From assembly GCA_963664725.1 (NCBI GenBank), contig OY761558.1:3007024-3071023 (forward strand): 64,000 nt of DNA, read 5' to 3'. Origin of the DNA: Dehalococcoidia bacterium. Lineage in GTDB: Bacteria; Chloroflexota; Dehalococcoidia; Lucifugimonadales; UBA3495. Below are positions 1 through 35,544 of the stretch, piece after piece (the stretch's first letter is position 1; every line of letters begins with the position of its first letter). The notes beneath the pieces are model-generated. The model had not been told where the DNA came from. It worked only from the letters and a program-made list of their open reading frames with translations, and made no database searches. The translations under genes were made by a program, and so were the position numbers.

Positions 1-1011
1 CAGGACGCTGCGTTTGCCCAGCAGCCCCGGGCCGGCGGGATGGAGGTTCACCAGGGGGACCACGGGACGCACCTTGCTCACCTTGAACCGGGCCCCGGCC
101 GGGTGGTCGAAGTGGCGGTAGGCGGCGGCCACCCCGCCCAGCAGTTCCTCGGCCCGCTGGGGCCGGGTCGCCTCCGGCAGCACGGCGATGACCTGGAGCT
201 CGGCGTCGAAGGCGATGCGGGAGACCTTCTCCCGGATCAGCAGGGGATCGTGGACCCGCCGTCGGGCCTGCTTCCAGCGCCACCAGCCCCAGCCCGCCAC
301 GGCGGCGGCGGCCAGGGAACCGGAGGCCAGGAGCGCCGCCTTCAGGTACTCCTCTTCCTGGACCCACAGGTAGCCCCGCAGGGCGGCCAGCGCGCCCGCG
401 CCCAGGACGGCCATGGTCACCCCGTCCAGCTTCAGGGGGCCGGTCTGGTAGGTGTAGGCGGGCTCCCGGTTCTCCGGCACGGCTGCCCGGTGGGCGCGGG
501 CCTGGTGGGCCTGGGACCAGTCGGGACCCAGGGAGCGCAGCAGCAGGCGGCACAGCACCCGCTCCCCCTCCTCCAGCTCCGAGAGGGCGCCCATCAGGGC
601 GATGAGGGGGTCGGAGCCCGGGTCCAGCAGGTCGTCGTCCCGGAAGGTGCGCAGGGGCACGTACTCGGGGCCGTCGGCCCGCAGCGTCATGTCCCACGCC
701 TGTTCGCCCTGGTGGACGAAGATGGGGTCCTGGTCCACGGGCACCTGCCGGATGCGGGCCTGGGGGTAGTGGGCGGAGAGCTGGCCCCGGACCACCTGGT
801 CGTCCTGGCAGCGGGCCAGCAGGGTCACGCCGTCCACGTCGGCGGCCAGTTCCAGGGAGAAGGGTTCGGGAACGGCGACGGACTGGAGCAGGTTCTCCAC
901 GCCCAGCATGGTGCGCTCGCCGGTGCGGGGCGGCGTCACCGCCAGCAGCACCGGGGCGCTGGGCTGGCGGTTGCCGAAGAGGATTTTGCCGGGGTTCAGT
1001 TGCAAATTCAT
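1..1011 (-). CDS. 5' part of a gene that runs off the left window edge (absent from the ORF track). Membrane protein at the distal end of the T4SS operon, possibly the N-terminal region of a coupling-protein-like ATPase.
   Basis: Own translation of the minus strand. ATG at 1011..1009 has GGAAGGA a few nt upstream, and the frame stays open to position 1: MNLQLNPGKILFGNRQPSAPVLLAVTPPRTGERTMLGVENLL... Two hydrophobic segments are present (VTMAVLGAGALAALRGYLW, LLASGSLAAAAVAGWGWWRW). The listed + ORF 40..1107 is its antisense shadow. The function is guessed from position after virB4. Confidence 0.55.
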   Translation of the reverse strand, partial: MNLQLNPGKILFGNRQPSAPVLLAVTPPRTGERTMLGVENLLQSVAVPEPFSLELAADVDGVTLLARCQDDQVVRGQLSAHYPQARIRQVPVDQDPIFVHQGEQAWDMTLRADGPEYVPLRTFRDDDLLDPGSDPLIALMGALSELEEGERVLCRLLLRSLGPDWSQAHQARAHRAAVPENREPAYTYQTGPLKLDGVTMAVLGAGALAALRGYLWVQEEEYLKAALLASGSLAAAAVAGWGWWRWKQARRRVHDPLLIREKVSRIAFDAELQVIAVLPEATRPQRAEELLGGVAAAYRHFDHPAGARFKVSKVRPVVPLVNLHPAGPGLLGKRSVL

Positions 1012-1075
1012 ATCGTCCTTCCTTTATATTGTTATGCGTGTTGGTGTTGGGAACGGAATTGCTCGCCCCTACCGG

Positions 1076-3328
1076 CTAGTGCCTGGGCCCGGGCCGCCAC
1101 TCGATGACCTCGGTCTCCTCGGGCGTGGCCTCGATGCGGACGGGAAAGCGGTTGCCCCTCGCCAGCAATAGGCCATCTCCGCGCGGGCAGGACAGCAGCC
1201 AGCGTTGCAGCTCTTCCGGCAGGTCGAAAGCCTCGCCCACGGTGCTGACGGCGGCGGCGTCCTGCTGGAGCAGCAGCTTGAAGGCGGCGTTCTGCAACAG
1301 GGCACGACCGGAGTGTCCGGTGATGGCCCTTGAAGAGTCCTCGCTGAGCAGGTCCTGCACGTCCTGGGTGATGAACTGCAAGCCCAGGCGGTGCTTCCTG
1401 GCCCGCTTCGCCATCGAGACCATGAAGGCCGCGCCCTCGGGGTGCTGCATGATGCTCCACACCTCGTCCACCACCAGCAGGCGGGGCCGGGGGTCCTGGG
1501 CGGCGGCGGCCCACACCGTCTCGGTGCAGACCATTGCCGCCGCCGGTCTCAGTTCCGGTTCCAAGAGGTGCAGGTCGAAGACGGTGACCAGGGCCTCACG
1601 GGCCAGCAGGTCGTCGCCCTCGTCGGAGAGCAGGTCCCGCAGGCTGCCGGTGGCGAAGGGACGCAGCAGGTGGGCGATCTCCGGCGTCTCCCCTTCCAGG
1701 TAGGCGTAGAAATCGCGGAATCCGGTGCGCTCCCTTCTCTCGGAGTAGTAGCCGGCCAAGGCGTGGTCCAGGGAGGAACGGCGCTCGGCGGACAGCCTCT
1801 CCCCCACCATCACCTCGATGAGGCGGCGCAGGCTGCCGATGCGCTGCAACAGTTCCTCGCTGTCGCCCCGGTCGATGACAAAGGGGTTCATGCCCTGGCC
1901 GGGGACGCCGGGGGACAGGACCCGCCCTCCGGCGGCTCTCGCCATGTCGGTGTACTCGCCCTCGGGGTCGATGATGTAGGCCCGCACGCCCCGGCACAGG
2001 CCCCGCAGCACGCCCAGCTTGGTGGCGAAACTCTTGCCGCTGCCGGAACGGGCCAACACCGCGGTGTTGGCATTGAGGTGGGTGCCGTCAAAAGGGTCGT
2101 AGACGATGGGAGCGCAGGCCCGCAGGTCGATGCCGTAGAGGGTGCCGCTCCTGGTGTCCAGGTCCGGCGGGGAGAAGGGGAACAGTCTCGCCAATGACGA
2201 CGTATCCAAAGTCCGCCACACCGCCACGGCGTTCAGGCCCAGGGGCAGGGTGGACAGCAGGCCCTCACGCTGGCGGAAGGCCAGGTTGTCCAGCTTGCCC
2301 AGGGTGGCGGCGAAGTGGGCCCGGGCCTTCTGCGTCAGGTCCTTGAGGGTGTCCTGGTCCCCGGCGTGGAGGGTGACGGACAGGGAGGCGTGAAAGAGCC
2401 GCTCCCGGCCCCGCTGCACCTCGTCCCTGAGCCTGGAAACGTCCTCCAGTGCGATCTCCGCCTCGGGGGACATGGAGCGACCTCGCTTGAAGGACAGGCT
2501 CTGGGCCGACTCGAACCTCACCTTCTGCCACTCCAGGGTGCGGGCCGCCTGGTCCGTGGGGATGGCGCCCAGATGCACCGACAGGTCCATGGGCGCTCCG
2601 GCGGCCATCAACCCCTGCAGGAAGCCGGGGACCAGGGAGCGGGGCCACTTGCCCAGGTGCAACGAGCGGACCAGCCGGTCGCCGATGCGGATGTCCCGGC
2701 GGTTGACCTCCACGTCCATCTCGGCGTCGTCGTCGCGGTCCTGGGGCGAGCCGCCCAGGGCGCAGGCCAGGAGCAGCAGCTTGAGAGAGTTGCCGTTCAG
2801 GGGAAAAACCCCGAGACCGGCCCGCACCAGCAGGGAGCGCAGCTCGTCGGCCCGGGCGTGCTCGCACACGGCGTAGAAGCGCCGGTCCAGGATGCCCTCC
2901 CGGTTTTCAAGGGTGGTCAAGAGCCGCCCCAGGCTGTCGGCGGCGTCCCTGGTCTGTTGGGGCAGGTCCTCGGGCTGAGCCTCGGTCAACCTGTCCCTCA
3001 ATGCCTGCAACACCGGCGGGTGTTGGCGCACCAGCAGTTGCACCGGGAAGTCCACGGCGTTCAGGGAACCGGCGAAGGCGCCCAGCTTGGGCTCGTCCAG
3101 CTCCAGCCCCATCACCTCCATGACCGCCAGCTTCACACCGTCCAGGCGCACCGGGCCGTCCTCCTCCAGGTGGGACAGCATGAAGAACAGGGGCAACGGG
3201 GGCGGGGGCTTGGGTTCGACGGCGGGTTCCTCCCCGCCGTCGAACTCCTGGGGCTGGGACCGGCCCGGCGGCCACCGCCGGGCCAGGTCCCTCAGGTTGC
3301 TGGGGTTGGGTAACGTCAATCTCACCAT
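1076..3328 (-). CDS. virB4: VirB4/TrsE-family type IV secretion ATPase
   Basis: 750-aa ORF with ATG at 3328 and an AAAGGAG RBS. Walker A is ARSGSGKSFATK and Walker B is LLVVDEVWSIM. Size and layout match conjugation VirB4/TraE ATPases. It is embedded in an operon of small membrane proteins. Confidence 0.88.
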   Translation of the reverse strand: MVRLTLPNPSNLRDLARRWPPGRSQPQEFDGGEEPAVEPKPPPPLPLFFMLSHLEEDGPVRLDGVKLAVMEVMGLELDEPKLGAFAGSLNAVDFPVQLLVRQHPPVLQALRDRLTEAQPEDLPQQTRDAADSLGRLLTTLENREGILDRRFYAVCEHARADELRSLLVRAGLGVFPLNGNSLKLLLLACALGGSPQDRDDDAEMDVEVNRRDIRIGDRLVRSLHLGKWPRSLVPGFLQGLMAAGAPMDLSVHLGAIPTDQAARTLEWQKVRFESAQSLSFKRGRSMSPEAEIALEDVSRLRDEVQRGRERLFHASLSVTLHAGDQDTLKDLTQKARAHFAATLGKLDNLAFRQREGLLSTLPLGLNAVAVWRTLDTSSLARLFPFSPPDLDTRSGTLYGIDLRACAPIVYDPFDGTHLNANTAVLARSGSGKSFATKLGVLRGLCRGVRAYIIDPEGEYTDMARAAGGRVLSPGVPGQGMNPFVIDRGDSEELLQRIGSLRRLIEVMVGERLSAERRSSLDHALAGYYSERRERTGFRDFYAYLEGETPEIAHLLRPFATGSLRDLLSDEGDDLLAREALVTVFDLHLLEPELRPAAAMVCTETVWAAAAQDPRPRLLVVDEVWSIMQHPEGAAFMVSMAKRARKHRLGLQFITQDVQDLLSEDSSRAITGHSGRALLQNAAFKLLLQQDAAAVSTVGEAFDLPEELQRWLLSCPRGDGLLLARGNRFPVRIEATPEETEVIEWRPGPRH

Positions 3329-3347
3329 TCAAAACTCCTTTCTGGTT

Positions 3348-3677
3348 TTAGATTTCGGGCAGGACCTCGATGATCCTGCCGACGATGCCGGCAGCGATGC
3401 CCTTGGCCAGCAGCACCACCACCAGGCCGACGATGGCCATGAAGACGGCGCTCCTGGCCTTGCCCCGGTTCTCCCCCTCGGCGCCCTCGGCCATCAGCAG
3501 GAACCCGGCCCACACGATGGCGAAGAAGCACAGCCCCGCCCCCAGGTAGGCCATGCCGGTGAGCGCCGCGTCGAAGGCGGCGGTCAGGTTGTCCATCTCG
3601 TCCTGCCTCGAGGTGGCGGCGATGGACGCCAACGCCGCCACACCCGACAGCAGGAAGGGGGTCAGCCGCCGGGCCAT
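3348..3677 (-). CDS. Small two-TM membrane protein, VirB2/TrbC-like pilin candidate
   Basis: Internal ATG at 3677 of the 326-aa track ORF gives 109 aa: MARRLTPFLLSGVAALASIAA... It has a signal-like N-terminus followed by two hydrophobic helices separated by a charged loop (EGAEGENRGKARS). It overlaps the stop of the upstream gene, which suggests translational coupling. Confidence 0.6.
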   Translation of the reverse strand: MARRLTPFLLSGVAALASIAATSRQDEMDNLTAAFDAALTGMAYLGAGLCFFAIVWAGFLLMAEGAEGENRGKARSAVFMAIVGLVVVLLAKGIAAGIVGRIIEVLPEI

Positions 3678-5308
3678 AGCCAGCTCCACCAGTTGGAACC
3701 GCCCACCGGCGTCTGCTCCGCCTTCGGCGGCTCCGGGGTGGGCGGCGGCACGTACAGGGCCCGGTAGGGGGCGTCGGCGCCCAGCCCGGTTGTCACCGGC
3801 TGCGCCGTACCAGACACGAGGGGCACGGTCTCGGACCTGGTGCGGGTGACGGGACCGCGCTGGTGCTCCGTCGCCCGCACGTGCTCCGGGTGGTGGACGT
3901 AGATGCGCACCGTCTTGACCGTGGTGCTTTCCCCGCAGCGGCAGGTCACCCGGCGGGTGTACACGTCGGTGCGGGCCGGGTGGTGGACGGTCTGCAACAT
4001 GGGCGGACGGGGGACGTTCAGCGTCGCCGTCAGTTCCGCCGTGATTTCCAGCTCTTCGGTGGCCCGCGCGTTGGCGACGGGCAGGGTGAAGGCGGTCTCG
4101 CCGTCGGCGACAAAGGTTGCCGTGGCGGAGTGGCCGCCCCACTCGACGCCGACCGTTCCCGTGATGCCGGTTACGTCGGCGTCCAGCATTGCCGGGACCG
4201 ACTGGCTGAAGTGGCCGCCGTAGACCGGCAGGTCCTCCTCGTGGCGGGTCTCGGCGACGCACTGCGAGGCGACGACGCCCCTGATGCTGCCGGGCGTCCA
4301 CTCCAGGGCGGTGACCTCCAGGTCGCACAGCTCTCCGTCAACGGACGGCAGGGGGTAGGGGATCTGGTGGTTCTTCAATGACGTGGCTCCGCTGCGGCCC
4401 AACGCGTCCTGCCAGGAGAAGGTGGAGGACGGCGACGGGCCGTCCAGGGTCAGGTTGTAGCTCTTGCTATGGCCCGCCGTGAGGCTGGTGTTGAAGCCCA
4501 TCTTCAGGGTCCTGCCCGACCTGCCGCCGAAGACCCGGCCCTTCAGGTCCAGGTCGTGGGCGGCGCGCAGGGTGACGGCGGCGGTGTCGCCGGAGACGGC
4601 CAGCCGCTCCACGTAGACGCGGCGGCCCGGCACCGGGTCCGGCGGCTCAAAGTAGATTTCGCCCAGCCGCCAGGCGTCGCCGTAGGGGTTGTCGTCCGGG
4701 TCGTCGGCCAGGGCGCTGCTGGGCAGCAGGACCACCGTCAGCAGCGCCAGGATGCCCACCGGCAGGAAGCGACTCCAGGGCCGACCCCGTGTCTGACGCG
4801 GGGTCTTCTCCTGCTGGCTCTCCTGGGGCCGGTACTGCTGGTTGCCCGCGTCCTTGCGGCGGCCCCGCCCGAACCAGCTGTGGGGCCGGAAGGGACGGCG
4901 GCCCTTCCGCCTCACCGCCTTCACCGCCCGGCCCACGCCGGAGGCGGCCTTCTTCGCCAGCAGCCGCAGGGGGTCGGGCCTGGCCTCGGGCTGGGGCGGC
5001 GGCTCGCTGGCGGCGAGCTGGGTGGGTGAGCCGACATAGCGCCGGGCCCCCAGCTTGAACTTGAGCAGGTCGGCGGCCACCAGGGGCAGCCCCCGGCCGC
5101 CCACCTTGCCCACGGTCATGGCGATGCCGATGATGCCCAGGACGATGGCGAAGGCCAGCTTCAGCCCCGTGGGGCCGAAGGGGAAGTAGCGGTAGACGCC
5201 GTAGGCCACGGCGCAGGTCGCCACCACCGCCACGATCTGGGGGAAGGTGAACCACAGCAGGGCCTTGTCCTCGGCCTGCACGTGGGTGGGTACTTCATGC
5301 TCTCTCAT
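3662..5308 (-). CDS. PrgI/VirB3-like membrane protein fused to a large extracytoplasmic domain
   Basis: The N-terminus EDKALLWFTFPQIVAVVATCAVAYGVYRYFPFGPTGLKLAFAIVLGIIGIAMTV matches the two-TM PrgI/VirB3-type module of Gram-positive-type T4SS. A third TM segment and a ~330-aa beta-rich domain follow. ATG 5308 is preferred over the track GTG 5314 because AGGAGG lies 8 nt upstream of it. Confidence 0.7.
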   Translation of the reverse strand: MREHEVPTHVQAEDKALLWFTFPQIVAVVATCAVAYGVYRYFPFGPTGLKLAFAIVLGIIGIAMTVGKVGGRGLPLVAADLLKFKLGARRYVGSPTQLAASEPPPQPEARPDPLRLLAKKAASGVGRAVKAVRRKGRRPFRPHSWFGRGRRKDAGNQQYRPQESQQEKTPRQTRGRPWSRFLPVGILALLTVVLLPSSALADDPDDNPYGDAWRLGEIYFEPPDPVPGRRVYVERLAVSGDTAAVTLRAAHDLDLKGRVFGGRSGRTLKMGFNTSLTAGHSKSYNLTLDGPSPSSTFSWQDALGRSGATSLKNHQIPYPLPSVDGELCDLEVTALEWTPGSIRGVVASQCVAETRHEEDLPVYGGHFSQSVPAMLDADVTGITGTVGVEWGGHSATATFVADGETAFTLPVANARATEELEITAELTATLNVPRPPMLQTVHHPARTDVYTRRVTCRCGESTTVKTVRIYVHHPEHVRATEHQRGPVTRTRSETVPLVSGTAQPVTTGLGADAPYRALYVPPPTPEPPKAEQTPVGGSNWWSWLWPGG

Positions 5309-5320
5309 GTTCACCTCCTC

Positions 5321-5629
5321 CTAGCCGCCGCCGCCGGTGGTGTCCCCACCACCGCCGCCGCTGTTGCCGGGGTCGGGCACGTCCAGGTCCACCGGGCTGC
5401 CCACCACGGCGTTGATCACCAGTTCCACCACGCCGTAGGCCACCAGGGCCAGCACGATGCCGGCCAGGGCGGTCATCATGGCCGTCTTGCCCCGTTCCAT
5501 CTGGTTGGGCGCGCCCGAGGCGGTCAGGTACAGGTAGGCGCCGTAGATGAAGTAGCCGACGCCCACGACCCCCACCAGCCCCAGGAGGATGCCCACCAGG
5601 TTCGATATGGTCTGTGTCAGGTCGTCCAT
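5321..5629 (-). CDS. VirB2/TrbC-like pilin candidate (second copy)
   Basis: 102 aa, with ATG at 5629 and an AAGGAGA RBS. Two hydrophobic helices are separated by the loop ASGAPNQMERGKT, and the tail is Gly-rich. The layout parallels 3348..3677. Confidence 0.62.
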   Translation of the reverse strand: MDDLTQTISNLVGILLGLVGVVGVGYFIYGAYLYLTASGAPNQMERGKTAMMTALAGIVLALVAYGVVELVINAVVGSPVDLDVPDPGNSGGGGGDTTGGGG

Positions 5630-5784
5630 AAAGTCTTTCTCCTTTTCGCTTGCTCGGTGGTTGAGTTGCTATCGTTCGGACTGATTCCTCACCTCTACTG
5701 GCACATGGCGCACCTCCAGAATGGCCGGACGGAGCGGACCGGTTCCGCTCCGCTGCTGGTCGTGGTTGTCGCAATTGCCGGTCG

Positions 5785-6762
5785 CTACGGCCCTTGACTG
5801 CGGGGAGTGGGACCGCTCTGACCGGTTGGGGTCGAGTTCTGCGCCGCCGAGTTCACCGCGTTGGCGGCGGTGTTGGCGGTCGTAGTTGTCGCCGCGGCAG
5901 CCGCTCCCGCTCCCACTCCCACGGGACCCCCGGCGGCTCCCCCGGCGATCAGCCCGATGGAGCGGGCGGAGCGCATCATGGAGCCGGGCAGGGACATGCC
6001 GAAGTAGAGGGTGTGGAGCCAGGCGTCGAAGGTGCCCTGCTGCCCCAGCATCGAGGGGACCCGGGTGGCCAGGTACATGAAGGCGATGGCCAGCAGCAGC
6101 TTCCAGACCAGGTCCTGCACCGGCTCGAACTGGCCGATGGCGGCGAACTCCCCCAGGAAGGCGAAGCCCAGGGCCACGGCGACGAGCTGCACCGCCTGCT
6201 GGAACACCGTGGTCATGAACATCCGCAGCCAGTGGCGGCCCCAGTTGGCGGTGTGGGGCAGGATCCACAGCCCCAGGGCGATGGGGGCCAGCGCCAGCAG
6301 GATGTCGATGAGGGCCAGGCGCAGGATCATCTGCACCAGCAGGTAGAGCAGGATGCAGCCGAAGACCAGGTAGAGCAGGGCGATGAAGATGGCCACCCCC
6401 ACCTCGCCGGTCTCCACGGCGGCTAGGAGCGCGAACAGGGGCGCCCGCAGCAGGTCGCCGGGGGTGACGCTCAGGGTGGCGGCGATGAACTGGGAAACGG
6501 CGTGGGCCACGTCGATGACCAGGGCGCACCACCACAAAGACGACGCGGCGGCCACCAGGCCCAGCACCAGCCGGGGCACCATCTCCCGCCAGCCCGATTG
6601 GTGCCTGCCGAGATGCTCCTGGACGATGAAGCTCAGGCCCATCCAGCCCAGGATCACGGTCAGGGCGGCGGTGGTGACGGCCCAGACCGCCCACCACGCA
6701 GCCTGCACGAAGGGGTGCAGGTAGGTGAGGTTTGGAGGGGTTCCGGTGAGGATGTCTCCCAT
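5785..6762 (-). CDS. VirB6/TrbL-like polytopic membrane protein
   Basis: Internal ATG at 6762 with a GGGGAGGG RBS, inside the 542-aa track ORF. About 6 hydrophobic helices are present (e.g. GVAIFIALLYLVFGCILLYLLVQMILRLALIDILLALAPIALGLWIL), and the tail is low-complexity Ala/Thr/Gly. The N-terminal 216 aa of the track ORF is Arg/Pro-rich junk that overlaps the next gene. Confidence 0.7.
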   Translation of the reverse strand: MGDILTGTPPNLTYLHPFVQAAWWAVWAVTTAALTVILGWMGLSFIVQEHLGRHQSGWREMVPRLVLGLVAAASSLWWCALVIDVAHAVSQFIAATLSVTPGDLLRAPLFALLAAVETGEVGVAIFIALLYLVFGCILLYLLVQMILRLALIDILLALAPIALGLWILPHTANWGRHWLRMFMTTVFQQAVQLVAVALGFAFLGEFAAIGQFEPVQDLVWKLLLAIAFMYLATRVPSMLGQQGTFDAWLHTLYFGMSLPGSMMRSARSIGLIAGGAAGGPVGVGAGAAAAATTTTANTAANAVNSAAQNSTPTGQSGPTPRSQGP

Positions 6763-6767
6763 ACTGG

Positions 6768-7379
6768 CTACCCTCCCCCGCAGTCGTCGATGTCCGTCTG
6801 GAACACTCCCTGAAACACGCCGCACAGGGTCCCGTGAACTCCCTGGATCACCCACTTGGCGGCGGCCCGCGCCCAGCGGTCCGGGTCCAGGGCGCCCAGC
6901 ACCCGGTCCCACAGACCCTTGGGCTGGTGGACGGGAATCAGGGCGTAGAAGACGTGGCGCTCGCCGCCGCCCTGGCGGGGCACGGCCAGCATCAGCAGGA
7001 GGGGCTGTTCGGGGTGGAGCTCGGGCTGCTCGCCCAGGGCCGGGTACTCGAAGGTGTATTCCCAGCCCTCGGCCAGGCGCTTCTCGCCGCCGCGGACCTG
7101 GTAGGTGTTGGTCAGCCAGTCGCCGGTGTCCGGGTGGCGGATGGCGTAGTGGAGGACACTGACCTGGCGGCTGAAGATGGGGCGGGCCACGAAGTCGCCG
7201 TCCTTCTTGCGCTCCACCAGCTGCCGGTCGCGGTTGACCAGGCTGACGTCGTCGGAGGGGGGAGGGGATTGGGCCAGGGCCAGGCCGCTGGCGGGGATGG
7301 CGGCGATGGCGGTAAGCAGCAGCGCCGCCGTGAGCAGCGCGGCCCGGCGCCGGACCCTGGGTCTGAGTTGGAGCGTCAT
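6768..7379 (-). CDS. Secreted protein of unknown function, first gene of the T4SS operon
   Basis: MTLQLRPRVRRRAALLTAALLLTAIAAIPASGLALAQ is an RR-containing signal peptide. The body is globular. ATG 7379 is preferred over the track GTG 7388 on the spacing to GAGAGG. Confidence 0.65.
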   Translation of the reverse strand: MTLQLRPRVRRRAALLTAALLLTAIAAIPASGLALAQSPPPSDDVSLVNRDRQLVERKKDGDFVARPIFSRQVSVLHYAIRHPDTGDWLTNTYQVRGGEKRLAEGWEYTFEYPALGEQPELHPEQPLLLMLAVPRQGGGERHVFYALIPVHQPKGLWDRVLGALDPDRWARAAAKWVIQGVHGTLCGVFQGVFQTDIDDCGGG

Positions 7380-7716
7380 CTCGTTCACCTCTCTGGGTTC
7401 TGCTGCGCCTCAAGGGGCCGCAGCGCCGCCGGAAAGTGTGGACAAAATCGGCTCCGGAAAAGACCCCTTATGGGGGGCCGCATCCGTGCGGGGTCTTACA
7501 GGGCCTCTTTTTTTCCGGCGCCGTCTTGCATCATTGGGGGTGTACAGGAATTTGGTTTTCGTGGTGATGCGGAAAAGAGGGCCGTCTCAAAGCTGAAACA
7601 GGCACGAATCGGGCCTGAATTCGCCCCCAACCCGTTAACACTTTGGTGAAAGGCCCCAGTCCGGCGGCCCGTGGCAAAACCGGGTTGGGGGGCCAACAAA
7701 AAAATCGAACGCCCCG

Positions 7717-7730
7717 GCGCGAATTCGCGC
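7717..7730. promoter_or_regulatory. Perfect 14-bp palindrome GCGCGAATTCGCGC in the divergent intergenic region
   Basis: Read directly from the sequence. It lies between the T4SS operon start (7379) and gene 7920..8780. Its role as an operator is only a guess. Confidence 0.25.
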
Positions 7731-7800
7731 ATTTCTCCCTATAGGGGTCGGCATGAAACGGCCCGTGTCGGGCCGGGCCGGGCCGGGAGTCCTGGCGAGG

Positions 7801-7891
7801 ATGGCCGGGGTCGATGGCCGGGGTCGATGGCCGGAGCCGATGGCCGGGGTCGATGGCCGGGGTCGATGGTCGGGGTGTATGGCCGGGGTGA
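7801..7891. repeat. Tandem direct repeat, 7 copies of a 13-bp unit ATGGCCGGGGTCG
   Basis: ATGGCCGGGGTCG occurs at 7801, 7814, 7827 (variant GGAGCCG), 7840 and 7853, and as degenerate copies at 7866 and 7879. The array ends 28 nt before ATG 7920. The 13-bp period is not a codon multiple. Confidence 0.9.
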
Positions 7892-7919
7892 AGGTGTCCG
7901 GCGACAAAGAGGAGAGATC

Positions 7920-8780
7920 ATGGAAAAGGAACCGGGCGGCATCGACGGCAGCAGGAGCGTGCGGGACATGCACCACCTGCGGCTGATGGCGCTGTTGCAG
8001 GAGCAGGTGCGGAACCACGGGCGAAGGCGGGCGGCGGAGAAGCTGGGAGTGGACCGCCGGACATTGGACGCCGCCCTGGACCAGGGGGCGCTGAACCGGC
8101 GCATCCGGGGGGCTTTGGAGCGGGCGCTGCAGTCCGGGGCAGGCTCCGCCGCCGCGAAGCAGCGGGACCGCAACCAGGTGCTGGAGGACCGGCTGGGGGA
8201 CCTGGAGGGCGTGGTGGAGGAGCAGGGCCGGGAACTGCGCGCCGGGCGCCGGGCCGCCGAGGACGAGATCAGGAAGCTGCGGGAGGAGCAGGCCCAGGCA
8301 TTTCGCCAGGTGGAACGGGCGCTGGCCGGGCTGGACGCTGGGGGTAATTCAGCGGGAGAGGCGCACCGACAGACGCAGGGACCGGCGTCCGTATCGCCAA
8401 CCGGCGGCAGGCAGTCCCCGCCCAGGCGGGAATACCCTGAACTGGTGACCCTGGATACCGCCGTAGACGACCCGGACGTATTCGGCGACGCCTGGGAATT
8501 GATCCAGGAATGGCGGGAATTGAAGGAGACCCACCCTAACGCGGGCCGGGGGCTGGACTGGCTGCTGACGGAGGAACGGTTCCTGGCGGTGGAGCTGGCC
8601 CTTTTGGAGGATCACGGCCTGACCCTGCCCCCGGCCCGTTTTCCCCTGCGGGGCTTCGACCGCAGCGGCCAGACGGGCTGGCGCCGCAAGGCCCTGGAGG
8701 ACACCCGGCGCAAGCTGCGCCGGCGGATGCTCCCGGCTTGGGTCCGGCGGTTGCTCACCCTCGAACGGTGGCGGAAATAG
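7920..8780 (+). CDS. HTH plus coiled-coil protein, putative regulator of the conjugative module
   Basis: ATG at 7920 follows AAAGAGGAGAG. AAEKLGVDRRTLDAALDQG resembles an HTH. A long Glu/Arg/Leu coiled-coil segment is present (LEDRLGDLEGVVEEQGRELRAGRRAAEDEIRKLREEQAQ). The track ORF start at 7671 would translate the 13-bp repeats and is rejected. Confidence 0.65.
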   Translation: MEKEPGGIDGSRSVRDMHHLRLMALLQEQVRNHGRRRAAEKLGVDRRTLDAALDQGALNRRIRGALERALQSGAGSAAAKQRDRNQVLEDRLGDLEGVVEEQGRELRAGRRAAEDEIRKLREEQAQAFRQVERALAGLDAGGNSAGEAHRQTQGPASVSPTGGRQSPPRREYPELVTLDTAVDDPDVFGDAWELIQEWRELKETHPNAGRGLDWLLTEERFLAVELALLEDHGLTLPPARFPLRGFDRSGQTGWRRKALEDTRRKLRRRMLPAWVRRLLTLERWRK

Positions 8781-9020
8781 AACGATGGCGGGAATAGAAG
8801 GGCTGGATGCAGGGGTTCCGGTCAACAGTTTGGGCGGAATCTCCGGGGGGTGTTGGAAGGGGTCTTTTCCCGCCCCGGCGCCTGTGATAATGGCCGTGTT
8901 GTCTGGATTTGCCAGGATTTCCAGCCATAGAAATCCTGGGGGCACGATTCCCTGTTGCCCGGGTTGACCGTAGGTATGATTCGCTCTCCCGAAAGTCCCC
9001 AAGAGGGAAGGCTGCCGCCG

Positions 9021-9084
9021 CGGATTTGACCCAGCTCTCCGCAGGCAGCGCGGACCGGATCGACGGATTTGACCCAGGTCTCCG
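9021..9084. repeat. Two 21-bp direct repeats CGGATTTGACCCAG(C/G)TCTCCG
   Basis: Copies at 9021..9041 and 9064..9084 share 20/21 positions. They lie inside the ORF-free stretch. Confidence 0.8.
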
Positions 9085-9096
9085 TCCCCGGTCCAG

Positions 9097-9203
9097 TCCG
9101 GCAGTTGGAGTCTGACGCAGGTCCTCCGGCTGCCGGGCGCCCGCTCCGCGGTTCGGGGTTGCCCCCGGGTCGCTGGGCACCCGTCCGGCAGGTTGGAGTT
9201 GAC
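9097..9203. repeat. Imperfect direct repeat pair TCCGGCAG(G)TTGGAG(TC)TGAC
   Basis: Copies at 9097..9116 and 9184..9203. The first is part of the hairpin CCGGCAG...CTGCCGG (about 9098..9136). Confidence 0.6.
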
Positions 9204-10018
9204 CACTCCACTCGCTGGGCGGCGGAGACGTAGCGGTTGGTCCCGCTCCGTTTCCACCCTGGCCGAGGCGTTCGTGGGTTTCCCCCGCGGCGCCCCGGCC
9301 AGGACCCTCAACCCACCGAGGCGCACGGCGGCGTCTTACCAGGAACCCCTATCCCAGGCGCGGAATCCCGACCCAGCGGCGCACCATAATCCCAAGGAGG
9401 TAGCCTACAGAAACAGCACGGCGTCCCGGATTTCCTCACCCACTGAGTGCACCCGGCGGAGCGGTTCGACCCGCTGCGCTGGTTTCTCACGACGCGGCTG
9501 GAACCAACAACCGGCTCCGGCTGCTTCCCCACGCCTGCGGCGTAGCTGCTGAACACGGACAGCGGCGCCGCAGGTTCCGCACGCTCCGGTCGGCGGCCTT
9601 ACGGTCGCGGGGCGGACGCTTGACGTTGCAACGCGGTTGCCACCGGGCAGGCCAGTGACCAAGTAGCCCGTTGCCGCGCCGCATTCCCCTTCACTCACCC
9701 ACGCAACATCAGCCCCGGAATGACTCCCTGGGCGAGCTGCGCCCTGCGCCAACCCACGTCCGTCCTTTGGTTGGATTGCCCGACCCTGGGAGACGTGCGC
9801 CTTGCGCCGGACGCCTGCTCCGAGCGGCTGACTCTCGCCGTGGGCCAACTGCGCCCGTCGCCAATCCCATCGCGGCGTCTTCCATCCGTTGGCTCACCGT
9901 GGGTGGAGCGTGTCCGGCGCCGGGAGGCAGGTCCGGCTTCAAACAGCCTTCGCAAATCCAAGGCGGCCGGATGAGCCGCCACCGACAAACAAACATCCAA
10001 CAAGTACAAGTTTGCACA

Positions 10019-10064
10019 CGAGCGGGGCCGTCCCTTTCCCACGGAAAGGAGGCGGCCCCGCTCG
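10019..10064 (+). promoter_or_regulatory. Long GC hairpin immediately upstream of the RBS of gene 10086..11090
   Basis: CGAGCGGGGCCG (10019..10030) pairs perfectly with CGGCCCCGCTCG (10053..10064). An inner CCTTTCC/GGAAAGG stem closes a 3-nt loop. GGAGGA lies 10 nt downstream. No U-tract follows, so this is not a classical terminator. Confidence 0.45.
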
Positions 10065-10085
10065 CTGCGTTTCGGAGGAATGAAC

Positions 10086-11090
10086 ATGTTCACTAACACC
10101 AACACCACCAGCACCGGCACTGGCACCGGCATCGGCATCGGCATCGACGCCAACCACAACCACAACAGCAGCGGACACCCCGTCGCCAAAACCCGCGGGC
10201 AGGCGCTCGACTCCGGCGCCGCCACCGACGAAACCACCGCCAGGGCTGGCCGGGCCGAGAGCGCCCTGGCCGCAGCCGCCCGGCAGCGCGGCCTCACCAT
10301 CGGGGAACTGGCCGCCCTGATGGGCGTAACTCCCTCCCACCTGTCCCAGGTCGCCCGGGGCAACAAGCCTCTCACCACCAACATGGCCGCCAAAATCGAG
10401 GCGGTCCTGGGCGAGATCCCGCCCCAGGGCATCGTCTACCGCCAGGGCGGCGTGGTTCACGGCGGACGGACCACCTACGTCCGGGAGCGGGCCCGGGAGC
10501 AGGGCCTGACCCTGCGGCAGGTGGCGGACCGGGCCGGAATCAGCTACGGCTACCTGGTCCAGGCCTCCCGGGGACATCGCAACCTGAGCCCCAAAGTGGA
10601 GAAGCAGGTGGAGGCGGTGTTGCAGGCCCCGGTGAAGGTGGAAACGGCCGATGTCGCCGACATTGACCCCCGGGTCCTGTGGGAGCGCATGGACGCCCAC
10701 GGAATATCGCAGAACGAGGTGGCCCGGCGGGTGGGCATCAGCACCGGGTACCTGTCCCAGGTGATGAACGGCCAGAGGAAGCCTTCAGCGAAGGTGCTCC
10801 GGGGCCTGCACGACGTGCTGTTCGCGCCGTCGCCGGCCGAGTTGGTGGCGCCGGTGGAAATGAAGGTGATGGCCTGGAAGAAGGGCGGACGCAACGGGGT
10901 AGTGGTCAAGGGCGCCGGCGGGCCGGGCGGCGATACGATTCGCACCGGCGGTCGGATACCCTGGGGCGCCCAGGTGGAATTCGCCTACACCACCGGCTAC
11001 GACAGCCGGGGCCGGGTGTCGGTGAACCACGTCGTGGACCAGCGGAGTTGTTCGGCCATGCTGAAGCGGCCGGAGCGGCGCGGGGCGTAA
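10086..11090 (+). CDS. DNA-binding protein with three tandem XRE/Cro-type HTH domains
   Basis: Three copies of the XRE pattern are present: GLTIGELAALMGVTPSHLSQVARGNKPL, GLTLRQVADRAGISYGYLVQASRGHRNL and GISQNEVARRVGISTGYLSQVMNGQRKP. The N-terminus is low-complexity Thr/Gly/Asn/His. The second ATG (10086) is preferred because GGAGGA directly abuts ATG 10080. Confidence 0.8.
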   Translation: MFTNTNTTSTGTGTGIGIGIDANHNHNSSGHPVAKTRGQALDSGAATDETTARAGRAESALAAAARQRGLTIGELAALMGVTPSHLSQVARGNKPLTTNMAAKIEAVLGEIPPQGIVYRQGGVVHGGRTTYVRERAREQGLTLRQVADRAGISYGYLVQASRGHRNLSPKVEKQVEAVLQAPVKVETADVADIDPRVLWERMDAHGISQNEVARRVGISTGYLSQVMNGQRKPSAKVLRGLHDVLFAPSPAELVAPVEMKVMAWKKGGRNGVVVKGAGGPGGDTIRTGGRIPWGAQVEFAYTTGYDSRGRVSVNHVVDQRSCSAMLKRPERRGA

Positions 11091-12045: not shown

Positions 12046-13479
12046 TCAGCCTTCTTCCGCCTCCGCCCCGGCCTGCTCCAGGGCCAGCCGCCTCTCCTCT
12101 ATAATGGACGGGTCGCCGGGGAACCGGCGCAGGATCTCGCCGTAGTCCGCCACCGCCTTCTCCGGTTCCCCCAGGCCGAGGTACACCAACGCCCGGTGGC
12201 GCCGGGCCTCCACGTTGGCGGGGTCCAGGTCGATGGCCCGCCCCAGGTCCTCCACCGCCCGGCGTCCCTGCCCCAGGTGGGCCAGGGCGTACCCCCTCAT
12301 GTGGTACGCCACCGACTCTTCGGGCATCAGCTCCACCAGCCGATCGTAGTCCTGGAACGCCCCCTGGTGATCTCCCAGGGCGGTGCGGGCCATTCCCCGG
12401 GACAGGTAGGCGCCCACGTTGTCCGGGTCCATCTCGACGACCGCGCTGAAGTCCTCCATCGCCTTATCGTGCCGGCCCAGGTTCACGTACTCCGTGCCCC
12501 GGCTGTAGAGGACGAGGGTATTGCCCGGGTCCTGCTCGATGACCCGGCTGTAGTCCTCTATGGCCCGCTCGTGCCGCCCCAGGTCGGCGTGGGCCAGCCC
12601 CCGGGCTGCCAGGGTCTCGGCGTTGCCCGGGTCCAGCTCCAGGGAGCGGTCCAGTTCCGCCATCGCCTCGTCGTGGCGGCCCATGGCGCCCAGGGCCACG
12701 CCCCGGCCCCGCCGCGCCGGGGCATTGTCCGGGTCCAGGGCGAGAACGGCGTCGAAGTCGTCCAGCGCCTTCTCGTACTCTTCCAGGTTCACGTGGGTGA
12801 TTGCCCGGGCGTAGAAGGCCAACCCGTATTCCGGTTCCAGTTCTATGGCGGCGTCCAGGTCCTCCAGGGCCTTCTCTATCTCCCCCAGGTCGCGGTATGC
12901 GTGGGCCCGGTGATAGTGGGCCTCCGGTTCCTCCGGGTCCAGTTCCGTGGCCCGGCCCAGGTCCTCCAGCGCCAGCAGGAGCTCGCCCATCTCGGCGTGG
13001 GTCACCCCCCGGTTGTAGTATGCCTCGGGATCCTCCGGGTCCAGCAGGATGGCCACGTCGAAGTCGCTCATCGCCCCGGCCAGGTCGCCCAACTCGGCGC
13101 GGCACCCGCCCCGGCTGGAGTGGGCGGCGGCGTTGCCGGGGGACAGCCGGATGGCGGTGTCGTAGTCCGCCACCGCCAGGCGGTGCTCCTCCAGTTCGCC
13201 GTAGACCCGGGCCCTATCCAGGTGGGCGCCCGCGTTGCCGGGTTCCAGGGCGATTACCCGGCCGTAGTCCTCGGCGGCGCGGCGGTAGTCCCCCACCTGC
13301 TCGTGGGCCAGCCCGCGCGCGGACAGGGACTCGGTGTCCTGGGGGTTGGCCTCGATCACTCCGTCCAGGTGCTCGATTATCCGGCCCAGCCCATCTTGTC
13401 CCAGGGCGTTCATCATCCGCAGGAACTCAGCGTAGTCCACCTGCGGCTCCATCCCGTCGTGTTCATGTTCTTCCGTCAT
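12046..13479 (-). CDS. Tetratricopeptide (TPR) repeat protein
   Basis: About 12 consecutive 34-aa repeats of the form A..Y.RG.A...LG....A..D...AI.LDP....A. ATG 13479 (MTEEHEHDG) follows GGGGAAG. The longer track ORF adds an Arg/Pro-rich leader. Confidence 0.85.
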   Translation of the reverse strand: MTEEHEHDGMEPQVDYAEFLRMMNALGQDGLGRIIEHLDGVIEANPQDTESLSARGLAHEQVGDYRRAAEDYGRVIALEPGNAGAHLDRARVYGELEEHRLAVADYDTAIRLSPGNAAAHSSRGGCRAELGDLAGAMSDFDVAILLDPEDPEAYYNRGVTHAEMGELLLALEDLGRATELDPEEPEAHYHRAHAYRDLGEIEKALEDLDAAIELEPEYGLAFYARAITHVNLEEYEKALDDFDAVLALDPDNAPARRGRGVALGAMGRHDEAMAELDRSLELDPGNAETLAARGLAHADLGRHERAIEDYSRVIEQDPGNTLVLYSRGTEYVNLGRHDKAMEDFSAVVEMDPDNVGAYLSRGMARTALGDHQGAFQDYDRLVELMPEESVAYHMRGYALAHLGQGRRAVEDLGRAIDLDPANVEARRHRALVYLGLGEPEKAVADYGEILRRFPGDPSIIEERRLALEQAGAEAEEG

Positions 13480-13966
13480 TGCGATCTTCCCCTGCGTAAT
13501 AATGTCTCTCCATCGGGCCGGTTTCCCGGGGCATAGCCGGGCGCTCCTGGATGGAATGACCCCCAGGCCACCGTACGGAACAACCGCCGCTGCCGGCCGG
13601 AGTCCGGCCCGCAGGCCGCATTGATGTGTTGTCAATGTGTCCGTCGCGGTCTCCGCCGGTTCCTGGCGGGACCGCCGCCAGCGGCAGGTCTATGATGGGA
13701 CAGACGTCACTTCAATGCAACGGCCTTCCGTCATAGGGCGCTATGCCCCCATGCGGCTGCTGTGAACGGGCGGCGGGCGAGCGGTGAGAGGGTACCCTTG
13801 CCTCTGCCATAGCCGGAACCGGAGGAGTCGGATGTTCTGGATTGCGCCTGCTGCCGGGCGCTGCCGATTCGGTTGGCGGCGGTGAACACTCCAAACTGTT
13901 ACGCCTGCGACTTGCCGTCGTCGGGCGGGATGGCTATGTAGGCCTCCCTTTTCGCGTTCCAAGCCC

Positions 13967-19292: not shown

Positions 19293-19367
19293 GTCAAGGC
19301 CAGGAAGTAGTTTCTTAGGGGCGGGCAGCCGTCCGCCCCTAACCCCCTAGTTTACAAGGAGGAATCA

Positions 19368-32299: not shown

Positions 32300-32558
32300 T
32301 GTTGCCTCCGCGCCTGCAAGGTGGAGGTGTCGCCGGAGGGAGACGCTAATATCGAACAATCTATGGAACGGGATCGCTCCGCTTGGAGTGTCACCAATGA
32401 TGCAGTCGCAAGTCTCCCAGACCATGCTCTCCAACGGGCAATTAGCACCAATGTCAGCTCGGTCTTGATCCGGACGGCACCCCTTATCATAAGCATACAT
32501 CCTTGGGCGGACTCACCAGTTAGTCGCCTCTGCACGGCCCGGATACGGGCATAACTCT
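32300..32558 (-). ncRNA. Candidate bridge (guide) RNA region in the 5' non-coding end of the IS110 element
   Basis: The call is by position only. IS110-group elements carry their structured guide RNA between the left end and the recombinase start. I did not fold or align the sequence. Confidence 0.3.
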
Positions 32559-34193: not shown

Positions 34194-34282
34194 ACCATCA
34201 CCTCACAACAACACGTTCTATCAACAGATTAGCACTACCAGTCAACCACCCTTGGAACACTCAAAACAAGCTTGACAAGGTA

Positions 34283-35477: not shown

Positions 35478-35544
35478 TGCTATCCCCAGTCTCTCCTCCT
35501 AATCTACCTCATCTTTCTGCACATTTCACCGTGGCTTTGGTTTA
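34284..35544 (-). mobile_element. IS630-family element no.3 (1261 bp), abutting no.2 at a shared TA
   Basis: TIRs are CTAAACCAAAGCCAAGGTGGGATGTGC (34283..34309) and GCACATTTCACCGTGGCTTTGGTTTAG (35519..35545), matching at 24/27 positions. Confidence 0.75.
35022..35045 (-). repeat. Hairpin mini-insertion copy 3 (in IS630 no.3): CCCCCG-TCTCCA-CGGGGG-CAGGCT
   Basis: Removing 23 nt joins ...SSCLNY to LHRLGFAFKRPKK in frame. Confidence 0.75.

What the first reader, a model, noticed from the sequence alone, without database searches (positions are those of the whole stretch)
8781..10085. 1.3-kb ORF-free, repeat- and hairpin-rich GC stretch next to the conjugation module
No frame here has a credible ORF; only Arg/Pro-rich shadows lacking an RBS appear. 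Yet the segment is as G+C-rich as the coding DNA around it. It contains 21-bp direct repeats CGGATTTGACCCAG(C/G)TCTCCG (9021, 9064). It has a second repeat pair TCCGGCAG(G)TTGGAG..TGAC (9097, 9184) and related GGA(A/T)T(T/C)C..ACCC motifs (about 9361 and 9428). It has many nested GC helices, including CCAGGATTTC/GAAATCCTGG at 8911..8940, CCGGCAG/CTGCCGG at 9098..9136 and CTGGCCG/CGGCCAG at 9259..9301. It ends in a 12+7-bp hairpin at 10019..10064, 10 nt before the RBS of the triple-HTH gene. Candidate roles are an oriT or iteron field of the integrated conjugative element, or a large structured non-coding RNA or long regulatory leader.
Basis: seen in the sequence. Interest (0 to 1): 0.55.

Follow-up and report, generated by a model that had tools for sequence, protein, structure and literature searches.

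The report
Large structured RNA beside conjugation genes
The 1.3-kb gene-free stretch is probably a large, heavily folded non-coding RNA or mRNA leader that matches no family in the RNA library searched (Rfam). It sits next to the DNA-transfer genes of a mobile element found in dozens of Dehalococcoidia genomes, so it may be a new kind of large bacterial RNA.

Summary
Window 8781-10085 has no coding signal, and the listed repeats and hairpins are at the stated places. It is neither junk nor a dead gene. The same element lies directly downstream of a conserved 286-aa gene in every related locus fetched that has the type IV secretion (T4SS) operon upstream and an intact junction (about 55 Dehalococcoidia/Chloroflexota loci). 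It is absent where the T4SS is absent. Its 5' 245 nt are the best-conserved DNA of the whole locus. Consensus folding beats shuffled controls along the entire 1.2 kb and favours the + strand. Conservation starts at a -10-like box (TGTGATAAT, 8883-8891). It ends at a hairpin (10019-10064) that scores as an intrinsic terminator in relatives, 10 nt before the ribosome-binding site (RBS) of the helix-turn-helix (HTH) gene. Rfam 15 has no match. In the distant subfamily the element is a ~650-nt leader of an operon that looks like an establishment module (primase, Rad52, SSB, RadC, methylase). Best reading is a new large structured RNA, either a leader or a stand-alone ncRNA. The main rival is a strand-specific DNA element such as oriT or a single-strand initiation site. 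There are no expression data, and the function is inferred.

The parts
1..7388 (-). T4SS operon, transcribed away from the element. It holds a p832 homologue (1-1005, cut by the window edge), VirB4 (1076-3328), a pilin-like gene, a ~550-aa protein, TrbL/VirB6 and a ~200-aa protein (6768-7388).
   Evidence: Pfam hits; tblastn with the gene set of L076; the same order in 46 loci.
7920..8780 (+). p286: a conserved 286-aa all-helical protein of unknown function, always immediately upstream of the element.
   Evidence: P0001 is 100% identical over 286 aa and 934 homologues were found. No Pfam, NCBIfam or PDB match. AF2 model pLDDT 66.
8883..8891 (+). Promoter-like extended -10 box TGTGATAAT. Sequence conservation of the element begins here; the inferred transcription start is about 8896-8899.
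   Evidence: The same box occurs once at the same place in the close-subfamily loci. Distant loci have TTCACA-17-AATAAT ending 5 nt before the core; it is the only promoter-like site in 1.6 kb, with 0.2 expected. The spacer 8781-8883 is not conserved in distant loci.
8896..9008 (+). 5' domain, nearly invariant, including hairpin 8912-8921/8930-8939.
   Evidence: Alignment A2 of 47 sequences has 89% mean column identity and 99.2% of cells paired. Covariance model R1 gives full-length hits of 188-265 bits.
9010..9302 (+). Class I array of seven tandem stem-loop modules: M1 9010-9050, M2 9052-9094, M3 9096-9138, M4 9143-9178, M5 9183-9220, M6 9224-9255, M7 9258-9302. Loops are conserved (UUUGAC(G/C)YAGSUC or UUGAYC) and stems covary.
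   Evidence: On A3, 96.4% of cells are paired and 10 pairs have compensatory changes. Tandem Repeats Finder sees periods of 41-45 in L017.
9392..9415 (+). Block TCAAGGAGGT..ACAGAAACAG, essentially invariant in the close subfamily. It is a perfect Shine-Dalgarno sequence with no start codon, homologous to the RBS and first codons of the first small gene of distant loci.
   Evidence: Alignments A4; comparison with L017 and L015.
9456..9686 (+). Central conserved hairpins: 9456-9479, 9494-9524, 9535-9573, 9583-9619 and 9628-9686.
   Evidence: Hairpin 9535-9573 is shared with distant loci, and its inner stem changes sequence while keeping complementarity.
9706..9932 (+). Each unit has two copies of CCCTGG-GCGNA-(C/G)TGCG(T/C)C. 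Relative L062 has three units.
   Evidence: The short motif alone is not significant in the window (19 hits against 12.4 expected).
9962..9980 (+). Conserved hairpin GGCGGCC-GGAU-GAGCCGCC, followed by the conserved sequence ACTGACAAAC.
   Evidence: 7 pairs, nearly invariant. The simple scan also reads it as a weak terminator on the - strand.
10019..10064 (+). Terminal 22-bp G+C-rich hairpin followed by CUGCGUUUC. It looks like a terminator and ends 10 nt before the RBS GGAGGA (10074-10079).
   Evidence: C-G to A-U compensatory change. The homologous hairpin is scored as an intrinsic terminator in L003 and L072 but not in the window, where the T-run is shorter.
10086..11090 (+). Triple HTH_3 (XRE-type) regulator gene, present downstream of the element only in the close subfamily.
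   Evidence: Pfam; synteny.

Best explanation
The stretch encodes a large structured RNA on the + strand, about 1.17 kb long.

Inferred course of events: transcription starts about 8896-8899 from the extended -10 box at 8883-8891. The RNA folds into a near-invariant 5' domain, an array of seven hairpin modules with conserved loops, a central set of hairpins and a second repeat array. It ends at, or is attenuated by, the terminator-like hairpin 10019-10064 just before the RBS of the triple-HTH gene.

Shown: conservation, covarying structure, strand bias, boundary signals and strict linkage to the T4SS operon plus p286.

Proposed mechanism (inferred): the repeated hairpins present identical loops as multivalent binding sites for a protein encoded by the element; p286 is the only invariably linked candidate. 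Occupancy would decide how much transcription or translation passes the leader and its terminator into the genes downstream. Those genes are an establishment-type operon in most relatives and the HTH regulator here. In the window's subfamily the small genes that follow the leader elsewhere are gone. The RNA is bounded by its own promoter and terminator, so it may also act in trans.
For: 1. Conservation. The whole 1.3 kb aligns at 65-77% identity in 13 close loci (93% in L069), and element length is held at 1187-1262 nt with one exception of 1364. The 8896-9140 segment is the most conserved DNA of the locus: 88.9% against L006 (VirB4 86.5%, p286 79.3%) and 80.6% against L017 (VirB4 77.7%, p286 71.3%).

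2. Linkage. The element is present once, on the + strand, in every locus with the T4SS operon upstream except one cut by its contig end and one that lacks the 5' part. It is absent from all loci without a T4SS.

3. Structure. RNAalifold on 14 sequences gives 329 pairs. In four 300-column segments the column-shuffle z-scores are -8.0, -6.8, -7.0 and -6.1. On A2, 99.2% of cells are paired; on A3, 96.4% are paired with 10 compensatory pairs. Shuffles reach the observed covariation score in 0 of 500 trials, and slid controls pair only 35-52% of cells.

4. Strand. The + strand consensus energy is lower in all four segments. Among pairs predicted on both strands, G-U outnumbers A-C by 39:14, 55:21 and 44:10 in the 5' half. 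Single-sequence z for 9306-10075 is -5.1 on the + strand against -1.1 on the - strand.

5. Boundaries. A promoter-like site lies at the exact start of conservation. The homologous 3' hairpin is scored as a + strand terminator in relatives.

6. Not coding. No Rfam family matches.
Against: There are no transcript data of any kind.

The window's own promoter lacks a -35 box and was not called by the scan. Its terminal hairpin has only a short T-run and was not called as a terminator.

The best-conserved 5' domain varies too little to show much covariation: 5 compensatory pairs of 55. The sequences are related, so shuffle controls overstate significance.

In the 3' half, G-U against A-C among strand-independent pairs is unbiased (9:11 and 23:17). 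With DNA parameters the 5' part folds equally well on both strands.

One predicted long-range helix (8884-8906 with 9373-9393) would include the -10 box, which conflicts with the proposed start.

In relatives the element sits exactly where an oriT or single-strand initiation signals could be expected.

The protein-binding step is pure inference. p286 has no recognisable RNA-binding fold.
Confidence: 0.55

Rival explanations
1. The element acts as DNA in conjugation. It would contain the oriT and/or single-strand initiation or origin signals (ssi/sso type) that fold in the transferred + strand.
For: In the full element L076 the stretch lies between a T4SS operon that ends in a Replic_Relax-family gene and an operon encoding primase, Rad52, SSB, RadC, a DUF6094 methylase and a helicase. 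This is the gene set reported for plasmid leading regions (PMC11541004). Strand-specific hairpins that tolerate G.T also fit single-stranded DNA. With DNA parameters the fold is significant (z -4.4). From memory, the class II core (C/G)TGCG(T/C)CC resembles the MOBQ nick core GTGCGCC/CT.
Against: Conserved, covarying structure runs through 0.65-1.2 kb and more than 40 helices, far beyond any oriT, or the 50-350 bp regions searched for Frpo/ssi signals. Invariant and tandem G-U pairs are frequent. The relaxase-like gene is 10 kb away. If the + strand were the transferred strand, the downstream genes would lie on the wrong strand for early expression. The promoter, terminator and Shine-Dalgarno features are RNA-level signals. 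The 8-mer resemblance is at chance level in 69% G+C DNA, and the motif is not enriched. No plasmid match was found.
Confidence: 0.2
2. The stretch is a double-stranded DNA field of protein-binding sites (iterons, operators or a centromere) for p286 or the HTH proteins. It would control the divergent T4SS and downstream operons, or replication and partition.
For: Loop sequences are repeated 3-5 times at spacings of 41-45 bp, about four helical turns. HTH-type genes lie next to the element. The class I core GACGYAG and the class II core CTGCGTC are reverse complements, so the same site could be present in two orientations.
Against: Binding sites in duplex DNA do not explain flanking stems that change sequence but keep pairing. 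They also do not explain the + strand bias or structure outside the repeats. In the window lineage the two cores changed differently (GACCCAG and CTGCGCC), so they do not track each other. There is no A+T-rich unwinding region.
Confidence: 0.08
3. It is an Frpo-like single-stranded DNA promoter: the transferred template (-) strand folds into a duplex mimic that drives early expression of the downstream operon in the recipient cell.
For: The position is right, immediately upstream of leading-region-type genes. A predicted long-range pairing would put the -10 box in a duplex.
Against: The structure signal is on the sense strand, not the template strand. There is no long hairpin carrying -35 and -10 boxes, only many short hairpins. 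The size is 2-4 times the upper length (350 bp) of the regions searched for Frpo/ssi signals. The long-range pairing is not kept in the distant subfamily (read directly from the L017 sequence).
Confidence: 0.04
4. It is a decayed pseudogene, or a run of chance hairpins in G+C-rich DNA.
For: High-GC shadow ORFs cover it, and gene callers sometimes call a 217-220-aa ORF on the - strand here. A relic ribosome-binding site of a lost small gene is present at 9394-9401.
Against: It is more conserved than the neighbouring genes. Only 12% of indels are multiples of three. There is no codon periodicity. Length is maintained. Stems covary. No locus has a gene across 8896-9390.
Confidence: 0.02

Closest known systems
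Large 'ornate' bacterial non-coding RNAs (GOLLD, ROOL, OLE; Rfam; cryo-EM in PMC12286853)
   Same: Several hundred to over a thousand nucleotides, many conserved helices and no coding capacity. From memory, GOLLD and ROOL are carried by mobile elements and their function is unknown.
   Different: No sequence or structure match to any Rfam 15 model. The element is built largely from two arrays of tandemly duplicated hairpin modules. It is tied to a T4SS element of Dehalococcoidia. In most relatives it is the 5' leader of an operon rather than a free-standing gene.
Protein-sequestering RNAs with repeated hairpin loops (CsrB/RsmZ family, CrcZ)
   Same: Several stem-loops in a row that display the same short loop sequence, which suggests multivalent binding of one protein (established knowledge, from memory).
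   Different: The loop motif is UUUGACGYAGSUC/UUGAYC, not GGA or a CA-rich motif. The RNA is 3-4 times larger. It lies in cis to a gene cluster, and no partner protein has been identified.
Leader RNAs that control read-through of long operons (HK022 put, EAR, regulated leaders of conjugation operons such as prgQ of pCF10)
   Same: A structured leader precedes a long operon, with a terminator between the leader (plus small genes) and the rest of the operon.
   Different: Known antitermination RNAs are 70-130 nt, while this element is 650-1170 nt. No sequence similarity. Nothing was tested about termination.
oriT regions and Frpo/ssi single-strand signals of conjugative plasmids (PMC11541004; Masai and Arai 1997, cited there)
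   Same: Location at the junction between transfer genes and leading-region-type genes, inverted and direct repeats, and strand-specific folding.
   Different: Differs in size, the number of helices under selection, the strand (sense strand of the downstream genes) and the absence of a duplex-mimic promoter. No adjacent relaxase gene and no recognisable nick site.
Type III toxin-antitoxin RNA antitoxins (ToxI-type tandem repeats followed by a terminator and a toxin gene)
   Same: Tandem RNA repeats of about 36-45 nt upstream of a terminator hairpin and a protein gene (from memory).
   Different: The repeats here are divergent hairpins rather than near-identical units. About 800 nt separate the array from the terminator. 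The downstream gene is an HTH regulator, not an endoribonuclease.

Membership tests
Any Rfam 15 RNA family | Covariance-model score at or above the family's gathering threshold. | tested here: not met
   0 hits in the whole window at gathering thresholds. With permissive filters on 8700-10150 the only hit is group-II-D1D4-2 at 15.3 bits against a 36-bit threshold, E = 2.9.
Structured non-coding RNA (generic) | Conserved secondary structure supported by compensatory changes beyond controls. | tested here: met
   A3: 10 pairs with both-side changes and a covariation score of 0.270 against 0.211 shuffled (0/500). A2: 0/500. Slid controls pair 35-52% of cells. Alifold z-scores are -6.1 to -8.0. 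Caveat: the sequences are related and R-scape was not available.
Structured non-coding RNA (generic) | It is transcribed, with defined ends. | not testable with these tools
   Only sequence signals are available: a promoter-like box at the 5' edge of conservation and a terminator-like hairpin at the 3' edge.
oriT | A nick site recognised by the cognate relaxase, next to an inverted repeat. | not testable with these tools
   The only candidate is the class II core, which resembles the MOBQ nick core from memory. The motif is at chance level in the window.
oriT | Close linkage to the relaxase or relaxosome genes. | tested here: inconclusive
   The Replic_Relax-family gene is at the far end of the T4SS operon, about 10 kb away in L076. 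By synteny it lies beyond the left edge of the window. F-type plasmids also separate oriT and the relaxase gene (from memory).
Iteron field (replication or partition) | Near-identical direct repeats at regular spacing, acting as duplex binding sites, usually with an A+T-rich region. | tested here: not met
   Only the loops repeat. The stems differ and covary. There is no A+T-rich segment; G+C stays at 0.62 or higher.
Frpo/ssi single-stranded DNA promoter | The template (transferred) strand folds into a hairpin that carries -35 and -10 boxes as a duplex, within regulatory regions of 50-350 bp. | tested here: not met
   Folding and the G-U bias favour the sense strand. No such hairpin exists. 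Length is 650-1200 nt. Criteria taken from PMC11541004.
Intrinsic terminator (hairpin 10019-10064) | A G+C-rich stem followed directly by a U-run. | tested here: inconclusive
   Not called in the window, where the tail is CTGCGTTTC. The homologous hairpins are called in L003 (18 bp plus CTGTTTTCGG) and L072.
Protein-coding gene or pseudogene | Codon periodicity, indels in multiples of three, and an ORF kept in relatives. | tested here: not met
   No ORF is shared across the region in the 14 aligned copies.
CRISPR array | Near-identical 28-37-nt repeats separated by unique spacers. | tested here: not met
   Repeat units are divergent and abut one another. Tandem Repeats Finder reports no array here in the window.

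The most novel reading that the evidence does not exclude
This would be a new class of very large (0.65-1.2 kb) ornate RNA that is an integral working part of a conjugative element. It would be kept as a stand-alone gene, with its own promoter and terminator, in the window's subfamily after the downstream establishment operon was lost. It would act in trans as a multivalent scaffold or decoy for proteins of the element or the host, for example p286, or host defence or RNA-binding proteins. That would make it an RNA component of the transfer or establishment programme.
Probability: 0.25. Interest if true: 0.85.

Novelty: new variant of a known kind. Interest (0 to 1): 0.62.

Why it matters
Very few bacterial non-coding RNAs longer than 500 nt are known, and most of them have turned out to have unusual architectures or biochemistry. 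This candidate is up to 1.2 kb long and matches no Rfam family.

It is more conserved than the secretion genes beside it. It is strictly tied to a T4SS mobile element that occurs in one to several copies per genome in an uncultured lineage of Dehalococcoidia.

If it is an RNA, it points to RNA-level control, or an RNA component, in conjugative transfer or establishment outside the well-studied plasmids. It would also give structural biologists a modular, repeat-built large RNA to study.

If it proves to be a DNA signal instead, it would be an unusually large and elaborate one. It would also locate the transfer origin of a new family of conjugative elements.

Tried and rejected
1. Known RNA families: the Rfam gathering scan and the permissive scan found nothing, and there are no tRNA or tmRNA genes.

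2. Similar DNA elsewhere: no match in plasmid or phage collections or in IMG/VR viral contigs, and only 2 JGI metagenome contigs.

3. Exact look-up of the flanking proteins failed because the ORF starts I gave were wrong.

4. Function of p286: the AF2 model is mediocre (pLDDT 66). Foldseek against the PDB, a profile search of PDB sequences, Pfam and NCBIfam all gave nothing usable.

5. Loop-loop 'kissing' between class I loops (GACGYAG) and class II cores (CTGCGTC): the two are complementary in most copies. In the window lineage both changed without compensation (GACCCAG and CTGCGCC), so the idea is not supported.

6. Antisense target of the loops elsewhere in the window: none found.

7. Hidden small ORF after the Shine-Dalgarno-like block: there is no start codon at a usable distance in any copy.

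8. Homology of the window's 3' half to the small protein of distant loci: none.

9. CRISPR-like or type III antitoxin-like repeats: the units are too divergent, and there is no toxin gene.

10. The long-range helix 8884-8906/9373-9393 from RNAalifold is left unresolved. It clashes with the inferred transcription start and is not kept in distant loci.

11. The sponge origin of the genomes could not be verified in the paper I checked.
Full report
**Observation**

The window has about 69% G+C. Between the stop codon at 8780 and the RBS at 10074 there is no coding signal. The spread of G+C among the three codon positions stays at or below 0.22, against 0.33-0.52 in the genes on either side. The many ORFs listed there are the usual shadows of G+C-rich DNA.

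- The 21-mer at 9021 and 9064 gives 2 hits against 0.01 expected by chance.
- The pair at 9093/9180 is present.
- The helices 8912-8921/8930-8939, about 9098-9136 and 9258-9303 are present.
- The terminal hairpin 10019-10064 is present.

The + strand folds far better than dinucleotide shuffles, with z -6.9 for 8896-9305 and -5.1 for 9306-10075.

Two gene boundaries needed correction. The upstream gene is 7920-8780 (286 aa, 'p286'). The HTH gene most likely starts at ATG 10086.

**Relatives**

p286 has no Pfam domain but 934 homologues. A scan of one genome per species returned 66 loci, all in Dehalococcoidia/Chloroflexota metagenome-assembled genomes, with up to four loci per genome. Ten more loci came from other assemblies and metagenomes.

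The non-coding stretch is conserved:
- In a close subfamily the whole 1.3 kb aligns at 65-77% identity (93% in L069).
- Element length in that subfamily is held at 1187-1262 nt, with one exception of 1364 nt.
- In a distant subfamily, where p286 is only about 62% identical at the protein level, the first 280-350 nt and a central block are still 75-80% identical.
- Segment 8896-9140 is the best-conserved DNA of the entire locus, ahead of VirB4, TrbL and p286. The 103-nt spacer just upstream of it is not conserved at all in distant loci.
- Indels among copies are mostly not multiples of three, so no locus has a gene here.

**Linkage**

The element occurs once, on the + strand, in every fetched locus where the T4SS operon (VirB4, pilin-like genes, TrbL/VirB6 and others) lies divergently upstream of p286. 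There are three exceptions: one locus cut by its contig end, one that lacks the 5' part, and one whose junction holds a DDE_3 (IS630-type) transposase gene shortly after p286 (L075).

Loci in which p286 paralogues occur without a T4SS have no copy. A covariance model built from 47 copies finds full-length matches of 188-265 bits, including in the seven intact new loci not used to build it (L067-L074), and nothing on the opposite strand.

The element is absent from the plasmid, phage and viral collections searched and nearly absent from JGI metagenomes.

**Anatomy**

Conservation begins abruptly at TGTGATAAT (8883-8891), an extended -10 box kept in the close subfamily. In distant loci the same position holds TTCACA-17-AATAAT. 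That is the only promoter-like site in 1.6 kb, and it ends 5 nt before the conserved core.

The parts, in order:
1. A near-invariant 5' domain (8896-9008).
2. Seven tandem stem-loop modules (9010-9302).
3. A perfectly conserved AAGGAGGT..ACAGAAACAG block with no start codon (9392-9415).
4. Five central hairpins (9456-9686).
5. Two units of about 112 nt of a second repeat (9706-9932).
6. A small conserved hairpin (9962-9980).
7. The 22-bp terminal hairpin.

The loops are conserved (UUUGAC(G/C)YAGSUC or UUGAYC), while the stems differ between modules and covary between genomes. Whole modules are gained and lost between loci, and L062 has a third class II unit.

**Structure and strand**

- On 47 sequences (5' domain plus M1-M2), 99.2% of cells pair. 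Changes are almost all G-C to G-U to A-U.
- On 14 sequences (M3-M7), 96.4% of cells pair and 10 pairs show compensatory changes. The covariation score is 0.270 against 0.211 in shuffles (0/500). Slid controls pair only 38-52% of cells.
- Over the full length, RNAalifold predicts 329 pairs. Each of four segments is 6-8 standard deviations better than column-shuffled alignments, and each is more stable on the + strand than on the - strand.
- Among pairs predicted on both strands, G-U outnumbers A-C about three to one in the 5' half but not in the 3' half.
- For 9306-10075 the - strand is no better than shuffles (z -1.1), whereas the + strand gives z -5.1.
- With DNA energy parameters the 5' part shows no strand preference.
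- The terminal hairpin shows a C-G to A-U compensatory change. Its homologues in L003 and L072 are scored as + strand intrinsic terminators. The window's copy has a shorter T-run and was not called.

**Context in complete relatives**

In L076 the minus-strand operon runs from a ~200-aa gene through TrbL, pilin, VirB4 and an 832-aa protein to a Replic_Relax-family gene.

On the other side come, in order: p286; a 644-nt version of the element; two small genes; a DnaG-type primase; Rad52; a TSCPD protein; SSB; RadC; a DUF6094 methyltransferase-like protein; and a helicase. SSB and orphan methylases in this set are gene classes reported as typical of plasmid leading regions (PMC11541004).

In these loci the element is therefore a ~650-nt leader that runs into the RBS of the first small gene. 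A terminator follows the small genes.

In the window's subfamily the small genes and this operon are missing. Only the relic RBS remains, and the homologous terminator hairpin now sits 10 nt before a triple-HTH gene. The window's T4SS operon continues past the left edge, where the p832 homologue occupies 1-1005 on the - strand. By synteny the relaxase-like gene lies just outside the window.

**Interpretation**

The features fit a + strand RNA best: conservation that starts at a promoter-like box, one-strand structure under selection along 1.2 kb, frequent invariant G-U pairs, an RNA-level Shine-Dalgarno block and a terminator-like end. I put this at about 0.55.

How it works is inference. The arrays of hairpins with identical loops look like multivalent binding sites. 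The position of the leader ahead of a terminator and a long operon suggests control of read-through or translation. Retention with its own promoter and terminator after loss of the operon suggests an additional role in trans.

The main rival (about 0.2) is a DNA-level conjugation signal (oriT, ssi or sso) folding in the + strand, which the genomic position makes plausible. Its size, the number of helices, the strand relative to the downstream genes and the RNA-type boundary signals argue against it.

Three further readings were weighed:
- Duplex iterons or operators (0.08).
- An Frpo-like promoter on the template strand (0.04).
- A pseudogene or chance hairpins (0.02).

**Comparison and novelty**

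No Rfam 15 family matches, and I found no description in the literature searches. In size and complexity the element resembles the large ornate RNAs. In its repeated loops it resembles protein-sponge RNAs. In its position it resembles regulatory leaders of conjugation operons, or oriT/Frpo regions. It meets the membership criteria of none of these. I rate it a new variant of a known kind (large structured RNAs and leaders of mobile elements), pending expression data.

Noticed in passing
window 7800-7889: A tandem array of 6.9 copies of the 13-mer GATGGCCGGGGTC (89% matches) lies 30 nt upstream of the p286 start, inside the divergent T4SS/p286 intergenic region. It is not present at the same place in L006 or L017. 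It could be an operator or iteron-type site, or simple repeat expansion.
   Followed up: partly
window 7414-7919: The divergent intergenic region between the T4SS operon and p286 has lower G+C (0.59-0.61). It holds a + strand terminator-like hairpin with a T7 run (7490-7507) and a - strand one (7601-7582). It is another place where an oriT or divergent promoters could lie.
   Followed up: no
window 1-1107: The ORF 40-1107 (+) is a shadow. The real gene is on the - strand (1-1005, cut by the window edge) and is 70% identical to the first 337 residues of the 832-aa protein that follows VirB4 in L076. There the next gene is a Replic_Relax-family protein, so a relaxase-like gene is expected just left of the window.
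   Followed up: yes
window 50066-51814: A second Replic_Relax/MarR-type gene lies 40 kb from the T4SS. It is only 33% identical over 67 residues to the one linked to the T4SS in L076, so it is probably part of another element.
   Followed up: partly
window 30911-42959: A cluster of transposase genes: IS110-type (30911-32500, - strand), two DDE_3/IS630-type (34283-35113 on the - strand, 41820-42959 on the + strand) and DDE_Tnp_1 (35704-36474, - strand). A DDE_3 (IS630-type) transposase gene lies shortly after p286 in L075, which has no copy of the element.
   Followed up: partly
window 44481-49676 and 57119-60201: A 1731-aa SF1 helicase fused to an MTES_1575 restriction-endonuclease-like domain, and a type I restriction-modification methylase (with an N-terminal HTH) plus its specificity subunit. 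These are defence-type genes in the same window.
   Followed up: no
window 14934-20105: A 1452-aa protein with a fibronectin type III domain, followed by a collagen-repeat protein. A 529-aa TPR protein lies at 12046-13635 on the - strand. A survey of sponge-associated genomes mentions fibronectin III-containing genes as enriched in such genomes (PMC8163846). The sponge origin of these genomes was not verified.
   Followed up: no
L009, L033, L036, L039, L042, L055, L059, L060, L063 (about 6800-7400): In loci without a T4SS, the p286-family gene is followed directly by a second paralogue in tandem, and the structured element is absent. The family therefore also exists in a different, unexplored context.
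   Followed up: partly
L070 7084-8843: A group II intron reverse transcriptase/maturase gene follows a shortened (159-aa) HTH gene downstream of the element in this relative, probably an intron insertion.
   Followed up: no
L017 7615-8112 and homologues: A conserved 165-aa protein with a Cys/His-rich N-terminal part and hydrophobic C-terminal segments is the first gene after the leader in distant loci. In L015 it is preceded by an extra small gene. It has no Pfam match.
   Followed up: partly
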